This document shows positions 1 through 32,502 of a stretch of 64,000 nucleotides of DNA, in pieces (the first letter of the stretch is position 1; every line of letters starts with the position of its first letter). The notes beneath the pieces are model-generated. The model ran no database searches. It saw nothing but the letters and a program-made list of their open reading frames with translations, and was not told where the DNA came from. This stretch comes from an uncultured Actinomycetota bacterium (lineage in GTDB: Bacteria > Actinomycetota > Actinomycetes > JAFAQI01), in assembly GCA_963770565.1 (NCBI GenBank), contig CAVYQE010000002.1:320001-384000 (forward strand), in the 5' to 3' direction. The position numbers and the translations under genes are program-made.

Positions 1-1170
1 GCCGACCTTGCCGCAGCCGACCTGGTCGGCGCACTGACGGCGGCCGGATTGACCGGCCGCGGCGGAGCGGCCTTCCCGGTCGCGCGGAAGGTCAGCGCCG
101 TACTCGCGCAGGCTCCGCGACCCGCGGTCGTCGTTGCGAACGCGGCCGAGGGGGAACCCGCCGCGTCGAAAGACAAGAGCCTGCTCGCGATGTCGCCACA
201 CCTGGTGCTCGACGGACTCGTGACAGTGGCCCATGCGATCGGTGCGGTGCGCACGATCGTCTATCTCCACGCCAGCCCGCGGCTGGAAGCGCTGCTCCGC
301 CACGCACTCGCCGAACGACGGGCGGCCCGGGTCGACCACCTGTCGATCGAGGTCGTCACGGCGCCCAGTCGCTTCATCGCCGGCGAGGAGTCGGCCGTGG
401 TGACCGCGATCGACGGAGGTCGCGCGATCCCGCGGGTAAAGCCACCGAGGGTGTTCGAGCAAGGAGTCGGGAAGCTGCCGACCCTCGTGCACAACGTCGA
501 GACCCTCGCCCAGGTCGGGCTGATCGCGCGGTACGGCCCGGACTGGTTCCGGGCGGTCGGCACGCCCGAAGAACCCGGCAGCATGCTGTTCAGCGTCGGC
601 GGAGCGGTCCCGCAACCGCGGGTGCTCGAGGGTCCGATCGGCGTCCCGCTCGACCGGGTCCTGGCATCGGTCGGCGGCGCCACCCAACCGCTTCAGGCCA
701 TCCTCGTCGGCGGCTATCACGGCGGCTGGATCGCGGCCTCGGAGATCGGCGCGCTACGACTCTGCAACGCCGAGCTCCGGCCCTTCGGGGTGGCGCTCGG
801 TGCGGGTGTGATCGTCGCGCTCCCCGACGATGTGTGCGGCTTGGTCGAGACCACGCGGGTGCTGCGCTACCTGGCCGGCGAGTCGGCGGGCCAGTGCGGT
901 CCGTGCCTGCACGGGCTGCCTCAACTGGCGGATCAGTTCGCCGCGATCGCCCGACCTCGGCGGTCGCGACGCGCCCGCCGCCAGGTCGAGGACACCGCTG
1001 CCCTGTTGCGCGGTCGTGGCGCGTGTGCCCACCCGGACGGAAGCCTGCGGTTCGCGCTCAGCGCGCTGAGCGCCTTCCGGGCCGAACTCGACGAGCACGC
1101 GCGCGGGCGGTGCACCGCGCGTTCGCGCCGGGCCGTCCTGCCGATTCCGGCGCACGCCACCTCGGACTGA
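1..1170 (+). CDS. NuoF-like NADH-binding flavoprotein (FMN-binding, SLBB, Fe-S domain), 5' end outside window
   Basis: GRGGAAFP, NAAEGEPAASKDK, FIAGEESA, ESAGQCGPC...GACAHP motifs; frame 1 open from base 1. Confidence 0.88.
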   Translation, partial: ADLAAADLVGALTAAGLTGRGGAAFPVARKVSAVLAQAPRPAVVVANAAEGEPAASKDKSLLAMSPHLVLDGLVTVAHAIGAVRTIVYLHASPRLEALLRHALAERRAARVDHLSIEVVTAPSRFIAGEESAVVTAIDGGRAIPRVKPPRVFEQGVGKLPTLVHNVETLAQVGLIARYGPDWFRAVGTPEEPGSMLFSVGGAVPQPRVLEGPIGVPLDRVLASVGGATQPLQAILVGGYHGGWIAASEIGALRLCNAELRPFGVALGAGVIVALPDDVCGLVETTRVLRYLAGESAGQCGPCLHGLPQLADQFAAIARPRRSRRARRQVEDTAALLRGRGACAHPDGSLRFALSALSAFRAELDEHARGRCTARSRRAVLPIPAHATSD

Positions 1171-1870: not shown

Positions 1871-3375
1871 CAGGTCCCGGCCCCGCTCGTGACGATCGTG
1901 GGCGGCAGCACAATCGCAATCCGGGCGCCGCCCAGGGTGGAGTCGGTGACCTCGAGGTGGCCGCCGTGACCTTCGGCCACCGCCTTCACGATCGCCAGCC
2001 CTAGACCGGAGCCCCTGGTGGCCCCGGCATCGGGACGGCTGAAGCGATCCAGCACCACGTGCCGGCGATTGGCCGGGATGCCGGGTCCGCTGTCAGACAC
2101 GACCAGCTCGACCCAGCCGTCGGCGCGCTGCCGCGCCGCCAGCGCGATCTGGTCCCCCGGGCCGGTTGCGTTCACCGCGTTGTCCAGCAGGTTGAGCAGC
2201 GCACCCCGCAGCTTGTCGAGACTTGCGTGCAAGGTCAGGTCGGGTACGTCGCCAAGCTGCCAGTCCCGGTCGGCGAGCACCTGCGCGGTGGCGAACAGAT
2301 CGATCACCATGCTGCGCAGGTCGATCGGCGCCGGCTCGACGAAGTCGGGTTCGAGGGCGCGGCCGAGCATGAGCAGGCGCTCGACCAGGGCGGTCATGTG
2401 GTCGATCTCGTCGACGACCACCGCGATCGTCTCGTGCACGTCCTGCGGGTCGGCGGTGCCGGTACGACCGAGTACCTCGAGGTGACCGCGGGCGACCGTG
2501 AGCGGCGTACGCAGTTGGTGCGACACATCGGCGAGCAGGCTGCGCTGGGTCGCCATCGCAGCCGCCACCCGGTCGGCCATCGAGTCGAAGGTGGCCGCCA
2601 GCTTGCCCACCTCGTCGTCGGTGCCCTGGTCGCCGAGCCGGCGGTCCATCTCCCCCTGACCAAGGCCGGCGGCGGTCTCGGTGATCCGGCCGATCCGGCG
2701 GAGCAGTCCCCGCAAGAGCAGGTAGCCCGCGAAGGCGCCGGCCAGCAACGCGATCAGCGCCTCGATGAGGGCAAGGTGCAACACCCGCGACTCGTTCTCG
2801 CGGACCTGGTCCTGGGCGGCGGCAACGATGAACGTCGCCTGCGCCTGACCGGCGTGCACGGGGACCGCCAGGACCTCGTACGTCGTAGCACCCACCCGCA
2901 TCGACCGCTCGACCGACCGGGCCAGCGGCGAACCGAGCATGGACTCAATCGCCGGCGAGGAAGCGAACGGCGCGGAGTTCGCACTGCCGAGCGCCGACTG
3001 CCCCGGGAAGCCGATCAGGATGACCTGACCGTCGGGAAGCGCGTGGGTGCGGAGGTAGCTGCGACTGAACGACCGAAGCCCGACCTGGGTGCCACGCGCA
3101 TCGGCTGCGCGCTGAAATCCGACCACCTCGGCCGTCAGCAGATGGGTGGTCGTGGAGTGCGACTGGCTGGCGAAGGTCCGGACCAGGCTGAGCACCACAG
3201 CCGACAAGATGATTGCGAGGACGCCGGCCTGCAACAGACCGAGCCGAGCCGCAGTGCCGAGCCGGCGGTTTCGCCGCGGGCGATCAGGGCGTGCGGGCAG
3301 CACCTGGCGGCTGGCCGGCTCGTCGGGGTGCGATCGATCCCCCACTCCCGGCTGGGCTGCCGTCGTGGTGGCCAT
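1870..3375 (-). CDS. HAMP-domain sensor histidine kinase
   Basis: Two TM segments, HAMP, H-box DVSHQLRTPL, NLLDNA, DSGPG, GSGLGLAIV; start ATG 3375 or TTG 3381. Confidence 0.93.
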   Translation of the reverse strand: MATTTAAQPGVGDRSHPDEPASRQVLPARPDRPRRNRRLGTAARLGLLQAGVLAIILSAVVLSLVRTFASQSHSTTTHLLTAEVVGFQRAADARGTQVGLRSFSRSYLRTHALPDGQVILIGFPGQSALGSANSAPFASSPAIESMLGSPLARSVERSMRVGATTYEVLAVPVHAGQAQATFIVAAAQDQVRENESRVLHLALIEALIALLAGAFAGYLLLRGLLRRIGRITETAAGLGQGEMDRRLGDQGTDDEVGKLAATFDSMADRVAAAMATQRSLLADVSHQLRTPLTVARGHLEVLGRTGTADPQDVHETIAVVVDEIDHMTALVERLLMLGRALEPDFVEPAPIDLRSMVIDLFATAQVLADRDWQLGDVPDLTLHASLDKLRGALLNLLDNAVNATGPGDQIALAARQRADGWVELVVSDSGPGIPANRRHVVLDRFSRPDAGATRGSGLGLAIVKAVAEGHGGHLEVTDSTLGGARIAIVLPPTIVTSGAGT

Positions 3376-25873: not shown

Positions 25874-25921
25874 CTGCGTGTCCTTCCGATGTCGAGGCCC
25901 GGCGGTTGACCGGCGGTTGCG

Positions 25922-26005
25922 TGCCCGGGGTGGGGTTCGAACCCACAAACCCTTGCGGGCCAGGGCTTTTAAGGCCCCTGCGTCAGCCAGTTGCGCCACC
26001 CGGGC
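25922..26005 (-). tRNA. tRNA-Leu (anticodon UAA), bldA-type; CCA not encoded
   Basis: GCCCGGG acceptor stem; GGGGC-CTTAAAA-GCCCT anticodon arm; long variable arm; GGTTCGAACCC T-arm. Confidence 0.96.
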
Positions 26006-27449: not shown

Positions 27450-30400
27450 ATGAGCGACGAGCCGGGTCGGATCATCGAGACCGGGCGGCGCACGACCTTC
27501 CGCGATGTCCTCGGGATCCATGAGTTCCGCGCGCTGTATCTCGCCCAGACCCTGAGCGTCGCCGGCGACCAAGTGGCCCGCATTGCAGTCGCGTCGATCG
27601 TGTTCCAGCGCACCCACTCCGCGCTGCTCACCGGCATCAGCTATGCGGTCACCTACCTCCCGTGGCTGATCGGCGGCCCGCTCGGATCGGTGTTCGCCGA
27701 CCGCCATCCGCGCCGGCACGTGATGATCGTCTGCGACACCCTGCGGATCCTGCTGGTGCTGCTGGTCGCGATCCCGGGGATGCCGACCGCACTCCTGCTG
27801 GTGCTGGTCACCATGGTGGCCTTCCTCGAGCCACCGTTCTCAGCGGCTCGGGCCGCCATGGTTCCGGACATCGTTGGCGAGGGCGACGCTTACGTCGCGG
27901 CGGCGACGCTGGGCAACTCGACGAACCAGCTCGCGGTCGTGGTCGGCTTCGCGGTCGGTGGTGCTCTGGTCGCACTCGTCGGCGCCCATGGCGCGCTGGT
28001 GGTCGACGCAGTGACCTTCGCGCTGTCCGCGCTGGTCGCCACCCGGTACGTCAGCCACCGCCCGGCAGCGATGGTCGAGCGCAGCCGCTGGCGCACCGAG
28101 ATCAGCGATGGCGCTCGCGTCGTCTTCCGCGACGCCAAGCTGCGCTGGCTCGTCGTCACGTCCTGGATCGTGGTCGGCACGGTCGTCGTCACCGAGGCGG
28201 TCGCCGTACCGTACGCGCGCTCTAGCGGCCACGGGGCCCTGGCGGCTGGCTTCCTCAGCGCCGCCGCCCCGCTCGGCATCGTCGTGGGCGCGTTGATCAT
28301 GGGCCGGGTCATGCGGCCCGAGACCGCCGAGCGGCTGATGCTGCCCACCGCACTGCTGGCGCCGGCGATTCTTGCCTTGACCGCGCTCAACTTGTCGCTG
28401 CCCGCCACCGGGGCGCTCTGGTGCGTCGCGGGCGCGATGAGCGCGATGACGGTGGTCGCAAACCGGGTCTTCGTGGTCTCGGTCCGGCACGAGCTGCGCG
28501 GCCGGGCGTTCGGAATCGCCGCGGCCGGCATCTCCGGCGCGCAGGGCATCGGCACGCTGATGGCCGGCCTGCTCACCTCGCACGTGGGCGTCACGCACGC
28601 CGTCGCGGACGTCGCACTGCCCGCTTTCGCCCTCATCGTCGTCTTCTCGGTCGGTTCTGCGTCCTTCAGGCAGCGTCAGCTTGGGTCGATATCGGATGTA
28701 TCGCCCCCGGAGGACGAGGACTTTGCCATGCCGGCACTGAAGCGCCGATCCGAGCTACGGGTCTGGACGCTCAACGCCGTGCTCGCAATCGTTGCCTTCG
28801 CAACCGCGCCACTGCTGCGGCACGACCACGCGTACGCCGGCCTGAACCTGCCCGCCTGGTGGGTGCTCTGCCTGTTCGTGCTGGGATTCGCCTTCCCGCT
28901 GCGGTTCGAATACCGCCAGCAGTCCTGGAACATCTACCTCGAGACCGTGCCGTTCGTGCTCGGTCTGCTGTTCCTCCCGCCGCTGATCCTGCTCGCCCTC
29001 CGGACCGGCGCCGTGGTCATCACCTATGCCATCCTCCGGCGGCAACCGGTGATCCGCAGCGCGTTCAACACCACCAGCGCGGCCTGCCACACCCTGGCCG
29101 GGATTTGGATGCTTCGACTGCTGGCACCCGATCACGCCGCTGCTCATCCATCGGTCTGGCCGGCCGTGTTCGCCGCGGTCATCTTCAGCGAGCTGGTATC
29201 CGGTTCCCTGGTCGCCCTGGTGATCTCCACCACGGACACGTCATGGCAGCTCAGGCAGAGCGTCCGGACCGCCATGATCGGCACCGGCGTGGCCACCGCG
29301 ATGGCCTTCCTCGGCCTGGCGATGGCGGCTGCGATCGACTACGACCAGGCGACCGCCTGGGCGATCACGGTCTTCGTGGTGCTCTCGATCGCCGGGCTGC
29401 AGACCTACCAGCGCCTGTCCGAGCGGGCCAACGCACTCGACCGGCTCTACGTGGTGGCCCGCGAGCTGAGCCCGACCGCGACCGGGCCGGCGGACCTGGC
29501 GCCGGCCCTCACCCAGCTACGCCGGATCATCAAGGCCGACTCGCTCGAGCTCGCGGCACCGTCCGGCAACGACGGCGAGTTCGCCACGGTCGTGAGCGTC
29601 TTCGACGACCCGACCAAGGGCGAGGGCACCAGCGTCTCCGAGCGACCGATCGGTGAAGGCTTCGACGCCATGTCGAGCGCCAACGCACCGAGCTCGCACT
29701 GGGCCTGGATCCCGCGACTCGGCCAGCGCCGGGCCACCCACATGCTGTCCACCCCGGTCAAGACCGGCGAACGCGTGCTCGGGCAGCTGACCGTCACGAA
29801 CCGGCCGGGTGAGTCCCAGGCCTTCGAGCGGGCCGACCTGCGGCTGTTGGAAGCGGCCGCCGACCAGATCGCCGCCGCGCTCGAGAAGGGCCGCCTGGTC
29901 GAGAGCCTGCGCCGGGCCGCGACGCTGGACAAGCTGACCGGCCTGGCCAACCTCGAGAGCCTGCGGTCCTTCCTTGACACCACCCTCGACGGCTCGGCCG
30001 GCGGCGTACTCGTCCTGCTCAACATCGACCGCTTCCACGAGGTCAACGACATGCTCGGCCACGACGCCGGCGACAGCGTGCTGGCCGAGGTCGCGCGCCG
30101 GCTCGAGAGCTCGCCCACACACGGCGCCCTCGTCGCGCGAGTCGGCGGCGACCAGTTCGCCCTGGCGATTCCTGGCGCTGCCGGCAGCGAAGTCGCCCGG
30201 CTGGCGGCGATGGCGGTCAAGTCCCGGGTGGACGGCTCGATCCGGTTCGCCGACGTCAGCGCCGACGTGCGGGTCACGATCGGCATCGCGCGCGCGCCCG
30301 ACCACGGCAGCGACGCCGCAACCCTGCTCCGGCGGGCCGAGATGGCGATGACCGCCGCCAAGGGCGGTACGTCGGGCATCGGCGAGTGGGAGCCGGACTA

Positions 30401-31205
30401 CGAGCGCGACGGCAGCCGGCGGCTCCAGTTGCTCGCCGGGCTTCGCACTGCCCTCGGCGACGGCGCGCTACGGGTCGCCTACCAGCCGAAGCTCCGACTG
30501 GGCAGCGGCGAGGTGACCGGCTTCGAGGCGCTCGTGCGGTGGAACCACCCGGAGCTCGGCCCGATCTCGCCGGCCGAGTTCGTCCCGCTCGCCGAAGCGA
30601 CCGGTCTGATCTCGGCACTGACCAGCACGGTGCTGCGGTCGGCGCTGACCACCTGCCGGTCCTGGCACGACGCCGGCAAGCCGGTGGGGATCGCGGTCAA
30701 CATCTCGGCCCGCAGTCTCGACGACTCGGTGCTGGTCGGACAGGTCGCGGCCATGCTGACCGCCAGCGGCCTCGAGCCCCGCTGGCTGACCTTGGAGATC
30801 ACCGAGAGCAGCGTCATGGAAGACCAGTCCCGCAGCGTCGACGTCCTGCGCGAGCTGCGGATGCTCGGCGTCCGGCTCTCGATCGACGACTTCGGCACCG
30901 GCTACTCCTCGCTGCACCAGCTGCGCGGGCTGCCGGTACACGAGGTGAAGATCGACCGAACCTTCGTCGAGACGGTCGACTCGGACGAAGCCGATCGCGC
31001 CGTGGTGCGGGCGGTGGTCGAGCTGTGTGACTCACTCGGCCTGGTCACGGTGGCCGAAGGCGTGGAGAAGGCCGCGCAGGCCTACGCGCTCGAGACCCTC
31101 GGAGTCGCGCAGGTGCAGGGCTACTTCCACGGTCGCCCGATGACCGAGGCGGCGGCGATGGAGTGGCTGCTGCCGCGCCGGGTCGCGTCGTTCGCGACCT
31201 TCTAG
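27450..31205 (+). CDS. MFS transporter fused to membrane sensor-GAF-GGDEF(degenerate)-EAL protein
   Basis: aa 1-~410 MFS (FRALYLAQTLS, FADRHPRR, ELRGRAFG); second TM block; GAF-like FERADLRLL; GGDQF at 30144; EAL at 30525 with EITES, DDFGTGYSS, AEGVE, QGY. Confidence 0.88.
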   Translation: MSDEPGRIIETGRRTTFRDVLGIHEFRALYLAQTLSVAGDQVARIAVASIVFQRTHSALLTGISYAVTYLPWLIGGPLGSVFADRHPRRHVMIVCDTLRILLVLLVAIPGMPTALLLVLVTMVAFLEPPFSAARAAMVPDIVGEGDAYVAAATLGNSTNQLAVVVGFAVGGALVALVGAHGALVVDAVTFALSALVATRYVSHRPAAMVERSRWRTEISDGARVVFRDAKLRWLVVTSWIVVGTVVVTEAVAVPYARSSGHGALAAGFLSAAAPLGIVVGALIMGRVMRPETAERLMLPTALLAPAILALTALNLSLPATGALWCVAGAMSAMTVVANRVFVVSVRHELRGRAFGIAAAGISGAQGIGTLMAGLLTSHVGVTHAVADVALPAFALIVVFSVGSASFRQRQLGSISDVSPPEDEDFAMPALKRRSELRVWTLNAVLAIVAFATAPLLRHDHAYAGLNLPAWWVLCLFVLGFAFPLRFEYRQQSWNIYLETVPFVLGLLFLPPLILLALRTGAVVITYAILRRQPVIRSAFNTTSAACHTLAGIWMLRLLAPDHAAAHPSVWPAVFAAVIFSELVSGSLVALVISTTDTSWQLRQSVRTAMIGTGVATAMAFLGLAMAAAIDYDQATAWAITVFVVLSIAGLQTYQRLSERANALDRLYVVARELSPTATGPADLAPALTQLRRIIKADSLELAAPSGNDGEFATVVSVFDDPTKGEGTSVSERPIGEGFDAMSSANAPSSHWAWIPRLGQRRATHMLSTPVKTGERVLGQLTVTNRPGESQAFERADLRLLEAAADQIAAALEKGRLVESLRRAATLDKLTGLANLESLRSFLDTTLDGSAGGVLVLLNIDRFHEVNDMLGHDAGDSVLAEVARRLESSPTHGALVARVGGDQFALAIPGAAGSEVARLAAMAVKSRVDGSIRFADVSADVRVTIGIARAPDHGSDAATLLRRAEMAMTAAKGGTSGIGEWEPDYERDGSRRLQLLAGLRTALGDGALRVAYQPKLRLGSGEVTGFEALVRWNHPELGPISPAEFVPLAEATGLISALTSTVLRSALTTCRSWHDAGKPVGIAVNISARSLDDSVLVGQVAAMLTASGLEPRWLTLEITESSVMEDQSRSVDVLRELRMLGVRLSIDDFGTGYSSLHQLRGLPVHEVKIDRTFVETVDSDEADRAVVRAVVELCDSLGLVTVAEGVEKAAQAYALETLGVAQVQGYFHGRPMTEAAAMEWLLPRRVASFATF

Positions 31206-31314
31206 ATCTACCAGCGACTTGACTGAGGATGTTGACCGGTCCTGGCCTGCGCGCGGGCTGGTGGCGGCGCACCCAGCTCGACGATCTCGGCGAATCGACC
31301 GGGCCGGAAAATAG

Positions 31315-31360
31315 CGATGGGTTACGACCCGGCGCTGCAGCACCAACTCGTAACCCATCG
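31315..31360 (-). terminator. Long hairpin (terminator or 3' stabiliser) between convergent transcripts
   Basis: Perfect 13-bp inverted repeat CGATGGGTTACGA/TCGTAACCCATCG; inner 7 bp pair fully only on the minus strand through three G-U pairs. Confidence 0.7.
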
Positions 31361-31424
31361 AACCGACCTGTCGTCACAATGGAGGACACGTCGTATCTGG
31401 TTTTAGCTTAGGAGAGCTCTCGGC

Positions 31425-31451
31425 TCAGCCCCAGCCCTGCGCGTTCTGCAC
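31425..31451 (-). CDS. Candidate micropeptide MQNAQGWG (or MTVQNAQGWG from ATG 31457)
   Basis: Minus strand GCGGAGGTGATGACA-GTG CAG AAC GCG CAG GGC TGG GGC TGA; 9-nt SD GGAGGTGAT, GGAGG 8 nt before GTG; all sense codons end in G/C. Confidence 0.55.
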   Translation of the reverse strand: MQNAQGWG

Positions 31452-31719
31452 TGTCATCACCTCCGCCTCACTGGTTCGCTTGTCTTCGCGGTCCAGTGTG
31501 CGCCAGATGGAGCAGTCCCGGTAGGCCAGATGGCGGAATATCTTCGCACCAAATTCGGACATTCGGCTACAGCAGTCCACTAAACGGTCGTTCAATCCGC
31601 GGCAAACGGCTCAAGGTCACTACGCCATCTGCCGAATACCCGTTCGGCCGAGTGGTCTAACCATCGATCGGCCGGATGCAGCAGTCGGCCGACCGACCGA
31701 CCCGAACCCGTGAACTTGC

Positions 31720-32502
31720 CTAGCTGAGGTAACTCACGGCCCGCGCGAACACGGCGTCGAGCATTGGCTCGGTCAGCTTGCCGGTGAAGGTGTTCTGCTG
31801 GCTCGGGTGGTACGAGCCGATCAGCAACAGGTCCCGGTCCGTGCGTACCTGTGCGAGGTGCCCGAACCGCACGCGTGGCGACGGCAGGCCATGTCCGAGC
31901 TCGGCAAGCACCGGCCACAGCGCGTTCCAGGCGAACCCGCCGAGCGCGACGATCGCCTGCAGTGTCGGCGCGAGCAGTGAGAGCTCGCGCACCAGCCACG
32001 GCCGGCAGGTCACCCGCTCGGTCGGCGTCGGCAAGTTCTGCGGCGGCGCGCAGCGGACCACCGCAAGCATCCGTACGTCGAGCAGCTCCTGGCCGTCACC
32101 GGCCGCCACGGAGGTCGGCAGCCGCGCCAGTCCCATTCGGTGCAGGGAAGCGAACAGCCAGTCCCCGCTGCGGTCACCGGTGAACACCCGCCCGGTCCGG
32201 TTGCCACCATGCGCGGCCGGCGCAAGGCCGACCACCGCGATCCGCGCATCGGCCGGCCCCCAGCCGGTGATCGGCCGGCCCCAGTACGCCTCGCCGGAGA
32301 ACGACGCACGCTTGGTCTCGGCAACCTGCTCTCGCCAGGCGACCAGCCGCGGGCAGGCTCGGCAGACCGAAATCACCGCGTCGAGCCCGTCGAGCGACCC
32401 AGCCGCCCCAGCGAGGTCGACAACGTCGGCCGGGGTTTGCGCGACCGGCGTCCGCAGGTCGGCATGATCGCCGGGCCAACCCGATCCCGGCGCGACGACC
32501 AC
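31720..32502 (-). CDS. udgB: Uracil-DNA glycosylase family 5
   Basis: CRACPRL, GLAPAAHGGNRTGRVFTGD, YHPSQQNT. Confidence 0.92.
   Translation of the reverse strand: MVVAPGSGWPGDHADLRTPVAQTPADVVDLAGAAGSLDGLDAVISVCRACPRLVAWREQVAETKRASFSGEAYWGRPITGWGPADARIAVVGLAPAAHGGNRTGRVFTGDRSGDWLFASLHRMGLARLPTSVAAGDGQELLDVRMLAVVRCAPPQNLPTPTERVTCRPWLVRELSLLAPTLQAIVALGGFAWNALWPVLAELGHGLPSPRVRFGHLAQVRTDRDLLLIGSYHPSQQNTFTGKLTEPMLDAVFARAVSYLS

What the first reader, a model, noticed from the sequence alone, without database searches (positions are those of the whole stretch)
31425..31464. 8-codon ORF MQNAQGWG with a 9-nt Shine-Dalgarno
The minus strand reads GGAGGTGAT (complement of the 16S 3' end), then GACA, GTG and seven sense codons all ending in G/C, then TGA. 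A strong RBS at correct spacing in an intergenic region, with no long ORF behind it, argues for a translated micropeptide. It is below the ORF-track cutoff. The terminal G-W-G could be a receptor-binding or modification site (inference).
Basis: partly seen in the sequence, partly recalled or inferred. Interest (0 to 1): 0.8.

Follow-up and report, generated by a model that had tools for sequence, protein, structure and literature searches.

The report
Conserved eight-codon tryptophan peptide gene
This is a real, conserved gene of only eight codons for a tryptophan-containing mini-peptide that, across soil actinobacteria, sits beside membrane enzymes of the c-di-GMP signalling system, which hints at an unrecognised peptide signal.

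Summary
On the minus strand, GGAGGTGAT (31464-31456) is a perfect 9-nt complement of this genome's 16S 3' end. After GACA come GTG (31451) and MQNAQGWG, ending in TGA (31425). In one genome such a pattern is not rare, so the evidence is comparative.

- The ORF is kept in 27 of 36 genomes of the family. It always has a strong SD, 6-9 codons (15-18 in four genomes), an invariant Trp 0-2 codons before the stop, all three stop codons, and ATG or GTG starts.
- Similar ORFs (MRGNAWH, MRNGHIWA, MRGDQWT and others) occur in other families and in metagenome contigs where the DNA is no longer alignable. They often form tandem arrays of 2-6 copies.
- Within arrays, 19 variable sites are synonymous and 4 change the peptide. 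Spacers are only 51-91% identical.
- The constant neighbour is a membrane c-di-GMP enzyme. Here it is a convergent MFS-TM-GAF-GGDQF-EAL phosphodiesterase. Elsewhere it is an MFS transporter plus a divergent 5-6-TM GGEEF cyclase.
- No Rfam, Pfam or literature match was found.

Best reading (about 0.55): a translated micropeptide that works with the adjacent transporter or sensor. The main rival is a cis-acting translation sensor. No expression data were available.

The parts
31456..31464 (-). Shine-Dalgarno GGAGGTGAT. The 7-nt core GGAGGTG is followed by exactly 6 nt before the start codon in most relatives.
   Evidence: It complements the 16S 3' end. The core and its spacing are tabulated for 35 loci.
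31425..31451 (-). Micro-gene: GTG start, 8 sense codons (MQNAQGWG), TGA stop.
   Evidence: It is kept as a 6-9 codon ORF in all 21 model matches in the family and, in altered form, in other families.
31431..31433 (-). TGG, the invariant Trp codon, next to last here.
   Evidence: Trp lies 0-2 codons before the stop in every row. The one related ORF without Trp is at L240.
31308..31360 (-). 46-nt hairpin (31360-31315) plus a CTATTTT tail. It is terminator-like and probably serves both convergent genes.
   Evidence: 93% of cells paired, 11 of 19 pairs with changes on both sides, and 0 of 500 shuffles reach the covariation score. The G-U pairs fit the minus strand. The simple terminator scan did not call it.
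31610..31635 (-). Conserved upstream block TCGGCAG-N14/15-CTTGAG, role unknown.
   Evidence: It also lies about 35 nt before the first SD in L134. The genome-wide motif search was uninformative.
31553..31562 (-). Conserved block ATGTCCGAAT, followed by a run of 7-10 T in many genera. Role unknown; it may be the 3' arm of the upstream gene's terminator.
   Evidence: The pairing partner is not consistent between genera.
31502..31533 (-). Two direct repeats (CCATCTGGC here, TACTCCAAAnGGCC in other genera) 23 nt apart. They could be an operator or RNA motif; this is inference.
   Evidence: The repeat pair is unique in the genome.
31495..31500 (-). CACACT, a candidate -10 hexamer (CAnnnT, with A and T conserved). 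Inference only.
   Evidence: Invariant and near-invariant columns. It is not kept in genus g6. The promoter scan found nothing.
27450..31205 (+). Partner gene, convergent with the micro-gene: MFS (about 12 TM), about 6 more TM, GAF, degenerate GGDEF (GGDQF), and an intact EAL (EAL, DDFGTG). It is a predicted membrane c-di-GMP phosphodiesterase.
   Evidence: Pfam, NCBIfam, motifs and hydropathy. Co-occurrence with the micro-gene is shown.

Best explanation
The 8-codon ORF is a genuine protein-coding micro-gene. It belongs to an undescribed family of 6-9 codon ORFs in Actinomycetes with the pattern Met, then Gln or Arg, then 3-5 mostly small or polar residues, then an invariant Trp, then 0-2 residues. 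Each copy has its own strong ribosome-binding site, and copies are often repeated in tandem. The peptide itself is the selected product.

It works together with the membrane c-di-GMP enzyme that always sits next to it. Here that enzyme is an MFS-fused EAL phosphodiesterase. In other lineages it is a separate MFS_3-type transporter plus a 5-6-TM GGEEF diguanylate cyclase. The most likely role for the peptide is as the ligand: a signal sensed by the membrane domain and/or a substrate of the MFS part.

In this window the peptide is made from a short, heavily translated transcript that ends at a conserved hairpin abutting the partner gene.

Shown: the ORF, its conservation, selection on the amino-acid sequence, and the gene association. 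Inferred: translation, that the peptide acts in trans, and what it binds.
For: (1) The ORF is conserved while its surroundings change.
- It is present in 5 of 5 genomes of the genus and in 21 of 21 covariance-model matches in 36 family genomes, covering 11 of 13 genera.
- Six more were read in genus g6, giving 27 of 36 family genomes.
- The SD core GGAGGTG is followed by exactly 6 nt before the start codon in 25 of 35 loci; the other ten have an SD variant, a different spacer, or both.

(2) There are clear coding signatures.
- Starts are ATG or GTG, and stops are TGA, TAG or TAA.
- Length changes come only in whole codons (6, 7, 8, 9, 15, 17, 18).
- A 27-nt in-frame insertion separates G048 from G009.
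- Conserved Gly, His and Arg positions use synonymous codons.

(3) Related peptides occur where the DNA is not alignable.
- The RNA model finds nothing in L133 and L134.
- Yet they carry MRGTTWH in 2 copies and MRNGHIWA in 4 copies at the same position.

(4) Tandem arrays show selection on the peptide.
- Variable sites in sense codons are 19 synonymous against 4 in amino-acid-changing codons, all 4 in one divergent copy.
- Spacers in the same arrays are 51-91% identical (sequences).

(5) The association holds in searches that did not select on the ORF.
- Of 81 UDG loci, only 2 have the EAL gene next door, and these are the 2 with the element.
- Among 80 metagenome loci chosen with the MFS+linker protein, 6 of 6 fused or split MFS-GGDEF-EAL loci with at least 229 nt of 3' flank have it (5 distinct).
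- In the same set, 17 of 17 loci with MFS plus a TM-GGDEF gene have it.
- About 45 MFS loci without a c-di-GMP gene gave only one off-pattern hit.
- Among 30 loci chosen with the cyclase N-domain, 16 of the 29 with upstream flank have it.

(6) Orientation to the enzyme gene differs between types: convergent with the fused phosphodiesterase, divergent from the cyclases. Adjacency is kept while geometry is not, which argues for a trans-acting product.

(7) Duplicated [array + cyclase] units on one contig carry different peptides: MRGEQWT and MRTTMWT, MRDNNWT and MRTTTWA, MRGDQWT and MRTTGWT. The cyclase N-domains next to MRG[DE]QWT arrays are the most alike, at 69-76% against 43-54% for the others. 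This is the pattern of cognate pairs, although common descent could also produce it.

(8) MFS and the enzyme are fused in some lineages and are adjacent separate genes in others.
Against: - There is no direct evidence of transcription, translation or peptide. No RNA run holds the stretch.
- G014 has the convergent EAL gene but no micro-ORF; the two stop codons overlap.
- Twelve of 29 cyclase loci have no Trp micro-ORF within 650 nt upstream.
- Four g6 genomes have lost the MFS/EAL gene yet keep a longer, hydrophobic version of the ORF.
- One related ORF (L240, MRARET) has no Trp.
- No export signal or processing enzyme is evident, and a free 7-8-mer would be short-lived in the cytoplasm (general knowledge).
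- In many MFS loci the last ORF stops 0-60 nt from, or overlaps, the MFS stop codon. The spacers are C-rich and G-poor. Both features also suit a cis mechanism.
- A regulatory nascent peptide would show amino-acid-level selection too.
Confidence: 0.55

Rival explanations
1. Cis-acting translation sensor. Ribosome traffic on the micro-ORF or ORFs decides whether transcription stops (at the hairpin here, or by Rho on C-rich spacers elsewhere) or runs antisense into the convergent MFS/phosphodiesterase gene. This would set the partner's expression. The peptide would matter only as a nascent chain.
For: - The ORF is always convergent with the MFS or MFS-fusion gene. The last stop lies 0-60 nt from, or overlaps, the partner's stop in MFS-only loci, leaving no room for a terminator.
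- Array spacers have a C/G ratio of 1.2-2.8 in most arrays.
- In this family the hairpin abuts the partner's stop and is more conserved than a plain terminator needs to be.
- There is a precedent. Ribosome binding to the 7-codon mccA ORF controls an intrinsic terminator and stabilises the RNA (PMC4231749, abstract read).
- Eight-codon-scale uORFs that sense ribosome-targeting drugs exist (10.1101/682021, search listing only).
Against: - In cyclase-only loci, including Nonomuraea gerenzanensis, no MFS gene lies downstream and the ORF is divergent from the enzyme gene. One cis geometry therefore cannot explain all cases.
- Non-Trp residues are also under selection.
- Paralogous units carry distinct peptides.
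- No conserved alternative pairing was found between the ORF and the hairpin.
- In G002 only 13 nt separate the stop from the hairpin.
Confidence: 0.22
2. Tryptophan sensor. The single Trp codon near the stop, multiplied in arrays, reports charged tRNA-Trp or free Trp, as in trpL or tnaC leaders (recalled), and so controls a neighbouring gene.
For: Trp is the only residue besides Met that is invariant in the 35 loci, and it always lies 0-2 codons from the stop. N-terminal sequence and length vary as in leader peptides. Arrays would multiply the number of Trp codons.
Against: - There is one Trp codon per ORF rather than a run.
- No trp or tna genes lie in any flank examined.
- There is no co-directional downstream gene in most loci.
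- No alternative hairpins were found.
- Arg2, Gly and Thr positions are conserved with synonymous variation.
- L240 lacks Trp.
Confidence: 0.08
3. Minimal RiPP precursor of the microcin C or biarylitide type. The peptide would be modified by an enzyme and exported by the MFS protein as a natural product.
For: Genes of 5-7 codons are known to encode such precursors (PMC13417212 and 10.1101/2020.07.21.214643, search listings only; PMC4231749 abstract). An MFS-type protein is adjacent here.
Against: - No P450, MccB-like adenylyltransferase, radical-SAM or other conserved modifying enzyme lies in the flanks. Neighbours are UDG, NDH-2, Ppx/GppA, BaxI, CBS, and GGDEF or EAL proteins.
- The C-terminal residue is variable, not Asn.
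- There is no Tyr/His biaryl motif.
Confidence: 0.08
4. Not a gene. The ORF would be a chance feature of a conserved non-coding RNA or DNA element.
For: Within the genus the conserved codons (CAG, GGC, TGG) are identical at the nucleotide level. The single-genome pattern is common.
Against: The frame, start, Trp and stop are kept across lineages whose DNA no longer aligns. Synonymous sites outnumber non-synonymous ones 19 to 4. Insertions are in frame.
Confidence: 0.02

Closest known systems
mccA, the 7-codon microcin C precursor gene of E. coli plasmids (PMC4231749, abstract read)
   Same: Both are ultra-short ORFs with their own SD, followed by an intrinsic terminator, giving a short ribosome-bound transcript. 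In both an MFS-type protein is encoded nearby (the MFS identity of MccC is recalled).
   Different: There is no MccB-like enzyme here and no conserved C-terminal Asn. The neighbour is a c-di-GMP enzyme. The ORF is convergent with the MFS gene rather than upstream in an operon. Tandem arrays are common.
bytA, the 5-codon biarylitide precursor (PMC13417212, 10.1101/2020.07.21.214643; search listings only)
   Same: Both are actinobacterial genes far below annotation cut-offs that encode the whole peptide directly, with an aromatic residue as the key position.
   Different: Biarylitides are defined by an adjacent cytochrome P450 and a Tyr/His-type cross-link motif. Neither is present here.
ComX pheromone of Bacillus (PMC13731918, PMC5331326, PMC4008528; search listings only)
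   Same: Both are short peptides whose only constant feature is a Trp near the C-terminus. Both show variable specificity groups and are encoded next to a polytopic membrane receptor gene.
   Different: ComX is cut from a longer pre-peptide and prenylated by the adjacent ComQ, and its receptor is a histidine kinase. Here the peptide is translated at final size, no prenyltransferase is adjacent, and the neighbour makes or degrades c-di-GMP.
Leader peptides of attenuators and drug-sensing uORFs (trpL, tnaC recalled; toiL, 10.1101/682021, search listing only)
   Same: Both are very short ORFs with strong SDs, key codons near the stop, and a terminator downstream.
   Different: Here there is no regulated co-directional gene, no run of regulatory codons, and no alternative hairpins. 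The peptide sequence beyond the key codon is selected. Multi-copy arrays occur.

Membership tests
Any Rfam RNA family | Covariance-model match at the gathering score | tested here: not met
   The whole window at gathering threshold gives only a tRNA. In 31100-31800 at E<=10 there are only chance-level hits well below gathering scores.
trpL-type transcription attenuator | Two or more regulatory (Trp) codons in the leader ORF | tested here: not met
   Almost all ORFs have one Trp codon. Two ORFs have two (MQKGWQWG, MNGGWGWP).
trpL-type transcription attenuator | Mutually exclusive antiterminator and terminator hairpins overlapping the ORF end | tested here: not met
   RNAalifold on 5 and on 19 sequences predicts only the terminal hairpin with support. 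The spacer from stop to hairpin ranges from 13 to about 64 nt.
trpL-type transcription attenuator | Co-directional downstream biosynthetic or catabolic operon | tested here: not met
   The next gene is convergent. Only the four g6 genomes that lost it have a co-directional NDH-2 gene.
Microcin C-type cluster | Adjacent MccB-like adenylyltransferase and a C-terminal Asn on the peptide | tested here: not met
   Pfam on the flanks shows none. The C-terminal residues are G, S, E, A, H, T, W, K, N or D.
Microcin C-type cluster | Tiny ORF followed by an intrinsic terminator, with an MFS protein encoded nearby | tested here: met
   The hairpin shows covariation and the neighbour has an MFS domain. 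This is a resemblance in architecture only.
Biarylitide RiPP | 5-residue MxYxH-type precursor next to a cytochrome P450 | tested here: not met
   No such motif is present. The neighbours are a UDG and an MFS-EAL protein, and no P450 was found in the other flanks scanned.
ComQXPA-type Trp pheromone system | Pre-peptide with a leader, plus an adjacent ComQ prenyltransferase and a ComP histidine kinase | tested here: not met
   The ORF is already at final size. No polyprenyl-synthase-like or kinase gene was found in the flanks scanned.
ComQXPA-type Trp pheromone system | Trp modified and required for receptor activation | not testable with these tools
   This needs mass spectrometry and bioassay.
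Proposed new family: Trp micro-ORF beside a membrane c-di-GMP enzyme | SD + Met + 4-7 residues + Trp + 0-2 residues + stop, within about 600 nt of a TM-GGDEF or MFS-...-EAL gene | tested here: met
   Window; relatives.

The most novel reading that the evidence does not exclude
The 6-9-residue Trp peptides are translated at final size and are cognate extracellular signals. They would be exported by the MFS_3-type transporter and read by the 5-6-TM domain of the neighbouring diguanylate cyclase or phosphodiesterase. This would be a peptide-to-c-di-GMP cell-cell signalling system with diversifying peptide/receptor pairs, and these would be the smallest pheromone genes known. In the window's lineage the exporter and the receptor-enzyme are fused into one protein.
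Probability: 0.3. Interest if true: 0.95.

Novelty: categorically new. Interest (0 to 1): 0.85.

Why it matters
Genes of 6-9 codons are invisible to annotation pipelines. This one defines a family found in several actinomycete families and in many soil metagenome contigs, so it is not a curiosity of one genome.

It is tied to c-di-GMP enzymes whose input signals are almost all unknown. For Streptomyces, the passages read in PMC6205966 say that the signals perceived by these N-terminal domains remain unknown. A ribosomally made ligand would give a directly testable input for a membrane cyclase or phosphodiesterase, and a candidate peptide signal in a group where peptide signalling is little known.

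If the cis model is right instead, the finding is a new way to couple ribosome traffic to expression of a convergent gene.

Either way, experiments are feasible. The ORF can be mutated or recoded, the peptide is trivial to synthesise, and a cultured carrier exists (Nonomuraea gerenzanensis).

Tried and rejected
**Searches and scans that found nothing useful**
- Rfam gave nothing for the region.
- The simple promoter and terminator scan found 0 sites in 31150-31800. The promoter remains unidentified.
- A strict pattern search in five family genomes without a model hit found none; three of them are 53-68% complete.
- Literature searches found no description of such ORFs or of MFS-GGDEF-EAL proteins with a small peptide. 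Supplementary files were not consulted.

**Readings considered and dropped**
- The 56-aa ORF sharing the stop is rejected, because it has in-frame stops in G001, G002 and G004.
- An in-frame ATG at 31457 overlaps the SD and is absent in the other genomes.
- No supported RNA structure was found upstream of the ORF.
- The idea that GTGTCCGAAT plus the T-run is the 3' arm of a terminator for the UDG gene folds in some genomes but with inconsistent partners. It is left open.
- Block A (TCGGCAG-N14/15-CTTGAG) was tried as a promoter or regulon motif. It has 6 genome hits with no pattern. Its reverse complement resembles a sigma-28/WhiG promoter (consensus recalled), but this is unverified and was dropped.
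- A SigK-like -10 (CCGAAT, recalled) was dropped because no matching -35 is present.

**Weak or failed analyses**
- A second, broader covariance model could not be built, so R1 was used throughout. R1 therefore misses diverged loci such as g6, L133 and L134.
- A profile comparison of the cyclase N-domain with the TM region of this family's phosphodiesterase gave E 0.0026 and probability 11.6%, which is inconclusive.
- The AlphaFold model of the cyclase N-domain was mediocre (mean pLDDT 64.8, 7 sequences). Foldseek against the PDB gave no match at E<=0.001. One row (an ECF S-component, E 0.53, TMt 0.63) is not interpretable.

**Not available or not run**
- No RNA holder was listed for the stretch, and nothing was laid from the three metatranscriptome runs.
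- Complex prediction was not run, because the peptide is far below the 30-residue minimum.

Full report
**1. The observation**

The minus strand reads GGAGGTGAT-GACA-GTG CAG AAC GCG CAG GGC TGG GGC TGA at 31464-31425. The genome's own 16S rRNA ends GGATCACCTCCTTTCT, so the SD is a perfect 9-nt complement.

The ORF lies in a 514-nt gap between two convergent genes:
- a UDG-superfamily gene (31720-32502, minus strand);
- a 1251-aa gene (27450-31205, plus strand) for a membrane protein made of MFS, further TM helices, GAF, a degenerate GGDEF (GGDQF) and an intact EAL domain.

Taken alone the pattern is unremarkable. Six short ORFs follow a GGAGGTGA octamer in this 4.4-Mb, 68% G+C genome, and a looser pattern matches 48 times. 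A 56-aa TTG ORF shares the stop but is broken in three of four sister genomes.

**2. Conservation within the family**

The gap is alignable in the four other genomes of the genus. All five keep an 8-codon ORF: MQNAQGWG (twice), MQSGQGWG, MQASNGWS and MQEGAGWE. Starts are GTG or ATG and stops are TGA, TAG or TAA.

I built a covariance model from these five, with only the terminal hairpin as structure (R1). It matched 21 of 36 genomes of the family, in 11 of 13 genera. Every match holds an SD followed by a 6-9 codon ORF with Trp as the last, next-to-last or third-last residue.

In genus g6 the model mostly fails, so I read the locus downstream of the UDG gene directly.
- Two genomes have MQTGHSWE and MQATVAWG next to an MFS-only remnant of the partner gene.
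- Four genomes have lost that gene and carry 15-18 codon versions with a hydrophobic middle. These keep the same SD and the same ...GW(G/E) end, for example MQALISVVAIVLHTIGWG. One differs from a short relative by a 27-nt in-frame insertion.

The census for the family is as follows.
- 27 of 36 genomes have the ORF.
- One (G014) lacks it, because the UDG and EAL stop codons overlap.
- Eight are undetermined. In four the contig ends inside the UDG gene, one has only 108 nt of flank, and three gave no UDG match and are 53-68% complete.

The downstream 46-nt hairpin is supported by covariation: 93% of cells are paired, 11 of 19 pairs change on both sides, and 0 of 500 shuffles reach the score. Its G-U pairs fit the ORF strand. 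Further upstream lie conserved blocks of unknown role.

**3. Which neighbour matters**

Within the family, the UDG gene (upstream, same strand) and the EAL gene (convergent) each flank the element in 20 of 21 loci. The two misses are contig ends.

Outside the family I looked at 80 further UDG loci from named Actinomycetes. The best hits were Mycobacteriales MAGs, followed by Frankia, Nonomuraea, Nocardioides and others. Together with L037 that makes 81 loci. Only 2 of the 81 have the EAL gene next door, and those are exactly the 2 with the element. The ORF therefore travels with the c-di-GMP gene, not with UDG.

A protein search of 401 genomes of the class found MFS-linked orthologues only in this family and in three genomes of other families. 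All three have the micro-ORF, convergent at the 3' end:
- G058 has MNGGWGWP with a weak SD.
- G107 has MRGTTWH in two copies.
- G026 has MRNGHIWA in four copies with an 84-nt period.

R1 finds nothing in the last two. Fifteen GAF-GGDEF-EAL homologues without MFS have none.

**4. A test that did not select on the ORF**

I scanned metagenome contigs with an alignment of only the N-terminal 760 residues, the MFS and linker part (A6). This returned 80 loci.

- Fused or split MFS-GGDEF-EAL genes with at least 229 nt of 3' flank carry the ORF in 6 of 6 cases, 5 of them distinct: MQSSHGWS, MQQGGQWG, MRGNAWH (at least 4 copies), MRGGNWS and MRGSTWG.
- Unexpectedly, many MFS-only loci carry it too. In these the gene order is MFS, then a micro-ORF array on the opposite strand, then a divergent gene for a 4-6-TM protein with an intact GGEEF domain.
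- All 17 loci with MFS plus such a cyclase have Trp micro-ORFs: 16 by pattern and L208 by reading.
- About 45 MFS loci without a c-di-GMP gene gave one off-pattern hit.
- Arrays reach six copies (L239, MRGDQWT).
- Some contigs hold two [array + cyclase] units with different peptides.

**5. A second such test**

I searched with the cyclase N-domain alignment (A7).
- Nonomuraea gerenzanensis has a TM-GGDEF gene with a divergent single ORF, MVRGVTWT, or MRGVTWT if read from the GTG. No MFS gene lies within 4 kb.
- In 401 genomes of the class, 62 have the domain. Thirty loci were returned, one of which has no upstream flank.
- Of the 29 with upstream flank, 16 have clear Trp micro-ORFs on the opposite strand 200-600 nt upstream. 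One is ambiguous. Twelve have none even without an SD requirement.

One positive locus (L250), the locus without upstream flank (L255), and one locus in the set (L138) come from genomes flagged unpublished.

**6. Coding evidence**

- Starts, stops and length changes behave as in a coding sequence.
- Conserved Arg, Gly, His and Thr positions use several synonymous codons.
- Within arrays, 19 variable sites are synonymous and 4 lie in amino-acid-changing codons, all in one divergent copy. The spacers between the same copies are only 51-91% identical.

This shows selection on the amino-acid sequence, whether it acts as a free peptide or as a nascent chain.

**7. Mechanism**

The ORF keeps its adjacency to a membrane c-di-GMP enzyme while its orientation changes between subfamilies. 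It is convergent with the fusion protein and divergent from the cyclases. Its sequence is selected at the peptide level, it is amplified in arrays, and it diversifies together with duplicated enzyme genes.

I therefore favour a trans-acting peptide that is the ligand or substrate of the adjacent sensor and transporter (confidence about 0.55). That it is a translated, selected micro-gene I hold at about 0.9.

The expression architecture in the window is a strong SD, a tiny ORF and a conserved hairpin. It resembles mccA, where ribosome binding controls termination and stabilises the RNA (PMC4231749, abstract).

The main rival is a cis-acting translation sensor. It is favoured by the strictly convergent, often overlapping arrangement with MFS genes and by the C-rich spacers. 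A Trp sensor, a RiPP precursor and a chance ORF are less likely, for the reasons given under rivals.

**8. Comparison with known systems**

No defining feature of attenuator leaders, microcin C clusters, biarylitides or ComQXPA systems is met beyond general resemblance (see the membership tests). Searches of the held literature found no description. The table of S. venezuelae c-di-GMP proteins, seen in passages of PMC6205966, lists no 5-6-TM GGDEF protein. I therefore treat this as a new family and a new kind of gene association.

**9. Limits**

- There are no expression data.
- The promoter is not identified.
- Homology between the cyclase TM domain and the TM region of this window's phosphodiesterase is unproven.
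- The fold of that domain is unassigned.
- The association is not universal (G014; 12 of 29 cyclase loci).
- Counts among related genomes are not independent events.

Noticed in passing
window 27450-31205 (+): The partner protein's GGDEF motif reads GGDQF, which is degenerate, while EAL and DDFGTG are intact. About six extra TM helices (residues ~430-655) lie between the MFS and GAF domains. The protein is probably a phosphodiesterase only.
   Followed up: partly
L152-L155 (G051, G048, G019, G044), downstream of the UDG gene: In four genomes of genus g6 that lost the MFS/EAL gene, the micro-ORF is 15-18 codons long with a hydrophobic core. It now sits, followed by a hairpin, upstream of a co-directional NDH-2 gene.
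   Followed up: partly
L033 and L150-L155, about 90-110 nt upstream of the micro-ORF: Genus g6 keeps T(T)ATCCACA just after the UDG stop, at the position of the ATGTCCGAAT block of other genera. It matches the DnaA-box consensus as I recall it. Its meaning is unknown.
   Followed up: no
L156, L157, L158, L161 (G046, G047, G042, G006): Four MAG contigs end inside the 3' part of the UDG gene, just before where the element should lie. This may be an assembly break at a repeat, for example a micro-ORF array.
   Followed up: no
G000 contig C1, about 1521968-1522061 (-), outside the window: Four head-to-tail 31-nt repeats each read GGGGGTGA..GTG ACA CTG CCC TGG GGT TTG TGG GGG TGA (VTLPWGLWG). The period is not a multiple of three, and the nature of the repeats is unknown.
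   Followed up: no
L240, about 2525-2560 (-): A micro-ORF in the same position (GGAGGTGAACGCA ATG ... TGA, MRARET) has no Trp. It is the only Trp-less relative seen.
   Followed up: no
L132 (G058) and L134 (G026); L176 and L181: The MFS part and the GAF-GGDEF-EAL part are in different frames (L132, L134) or are separate adjacent ORFs (L176, L181). The fusion seen in the window is therefore split in other lineages.
   Followed up: partly
window 38-134 (+) and 25921-26005 (-): tRNA-Gly(TCC) and tRNA-Leu(TAA) genes. Neighbouring genes include CBS-domain cystathionine beta-synthase-like, thiolase, NDH-2, DUF4331 and Ppx/GppA.
   Followed up: no
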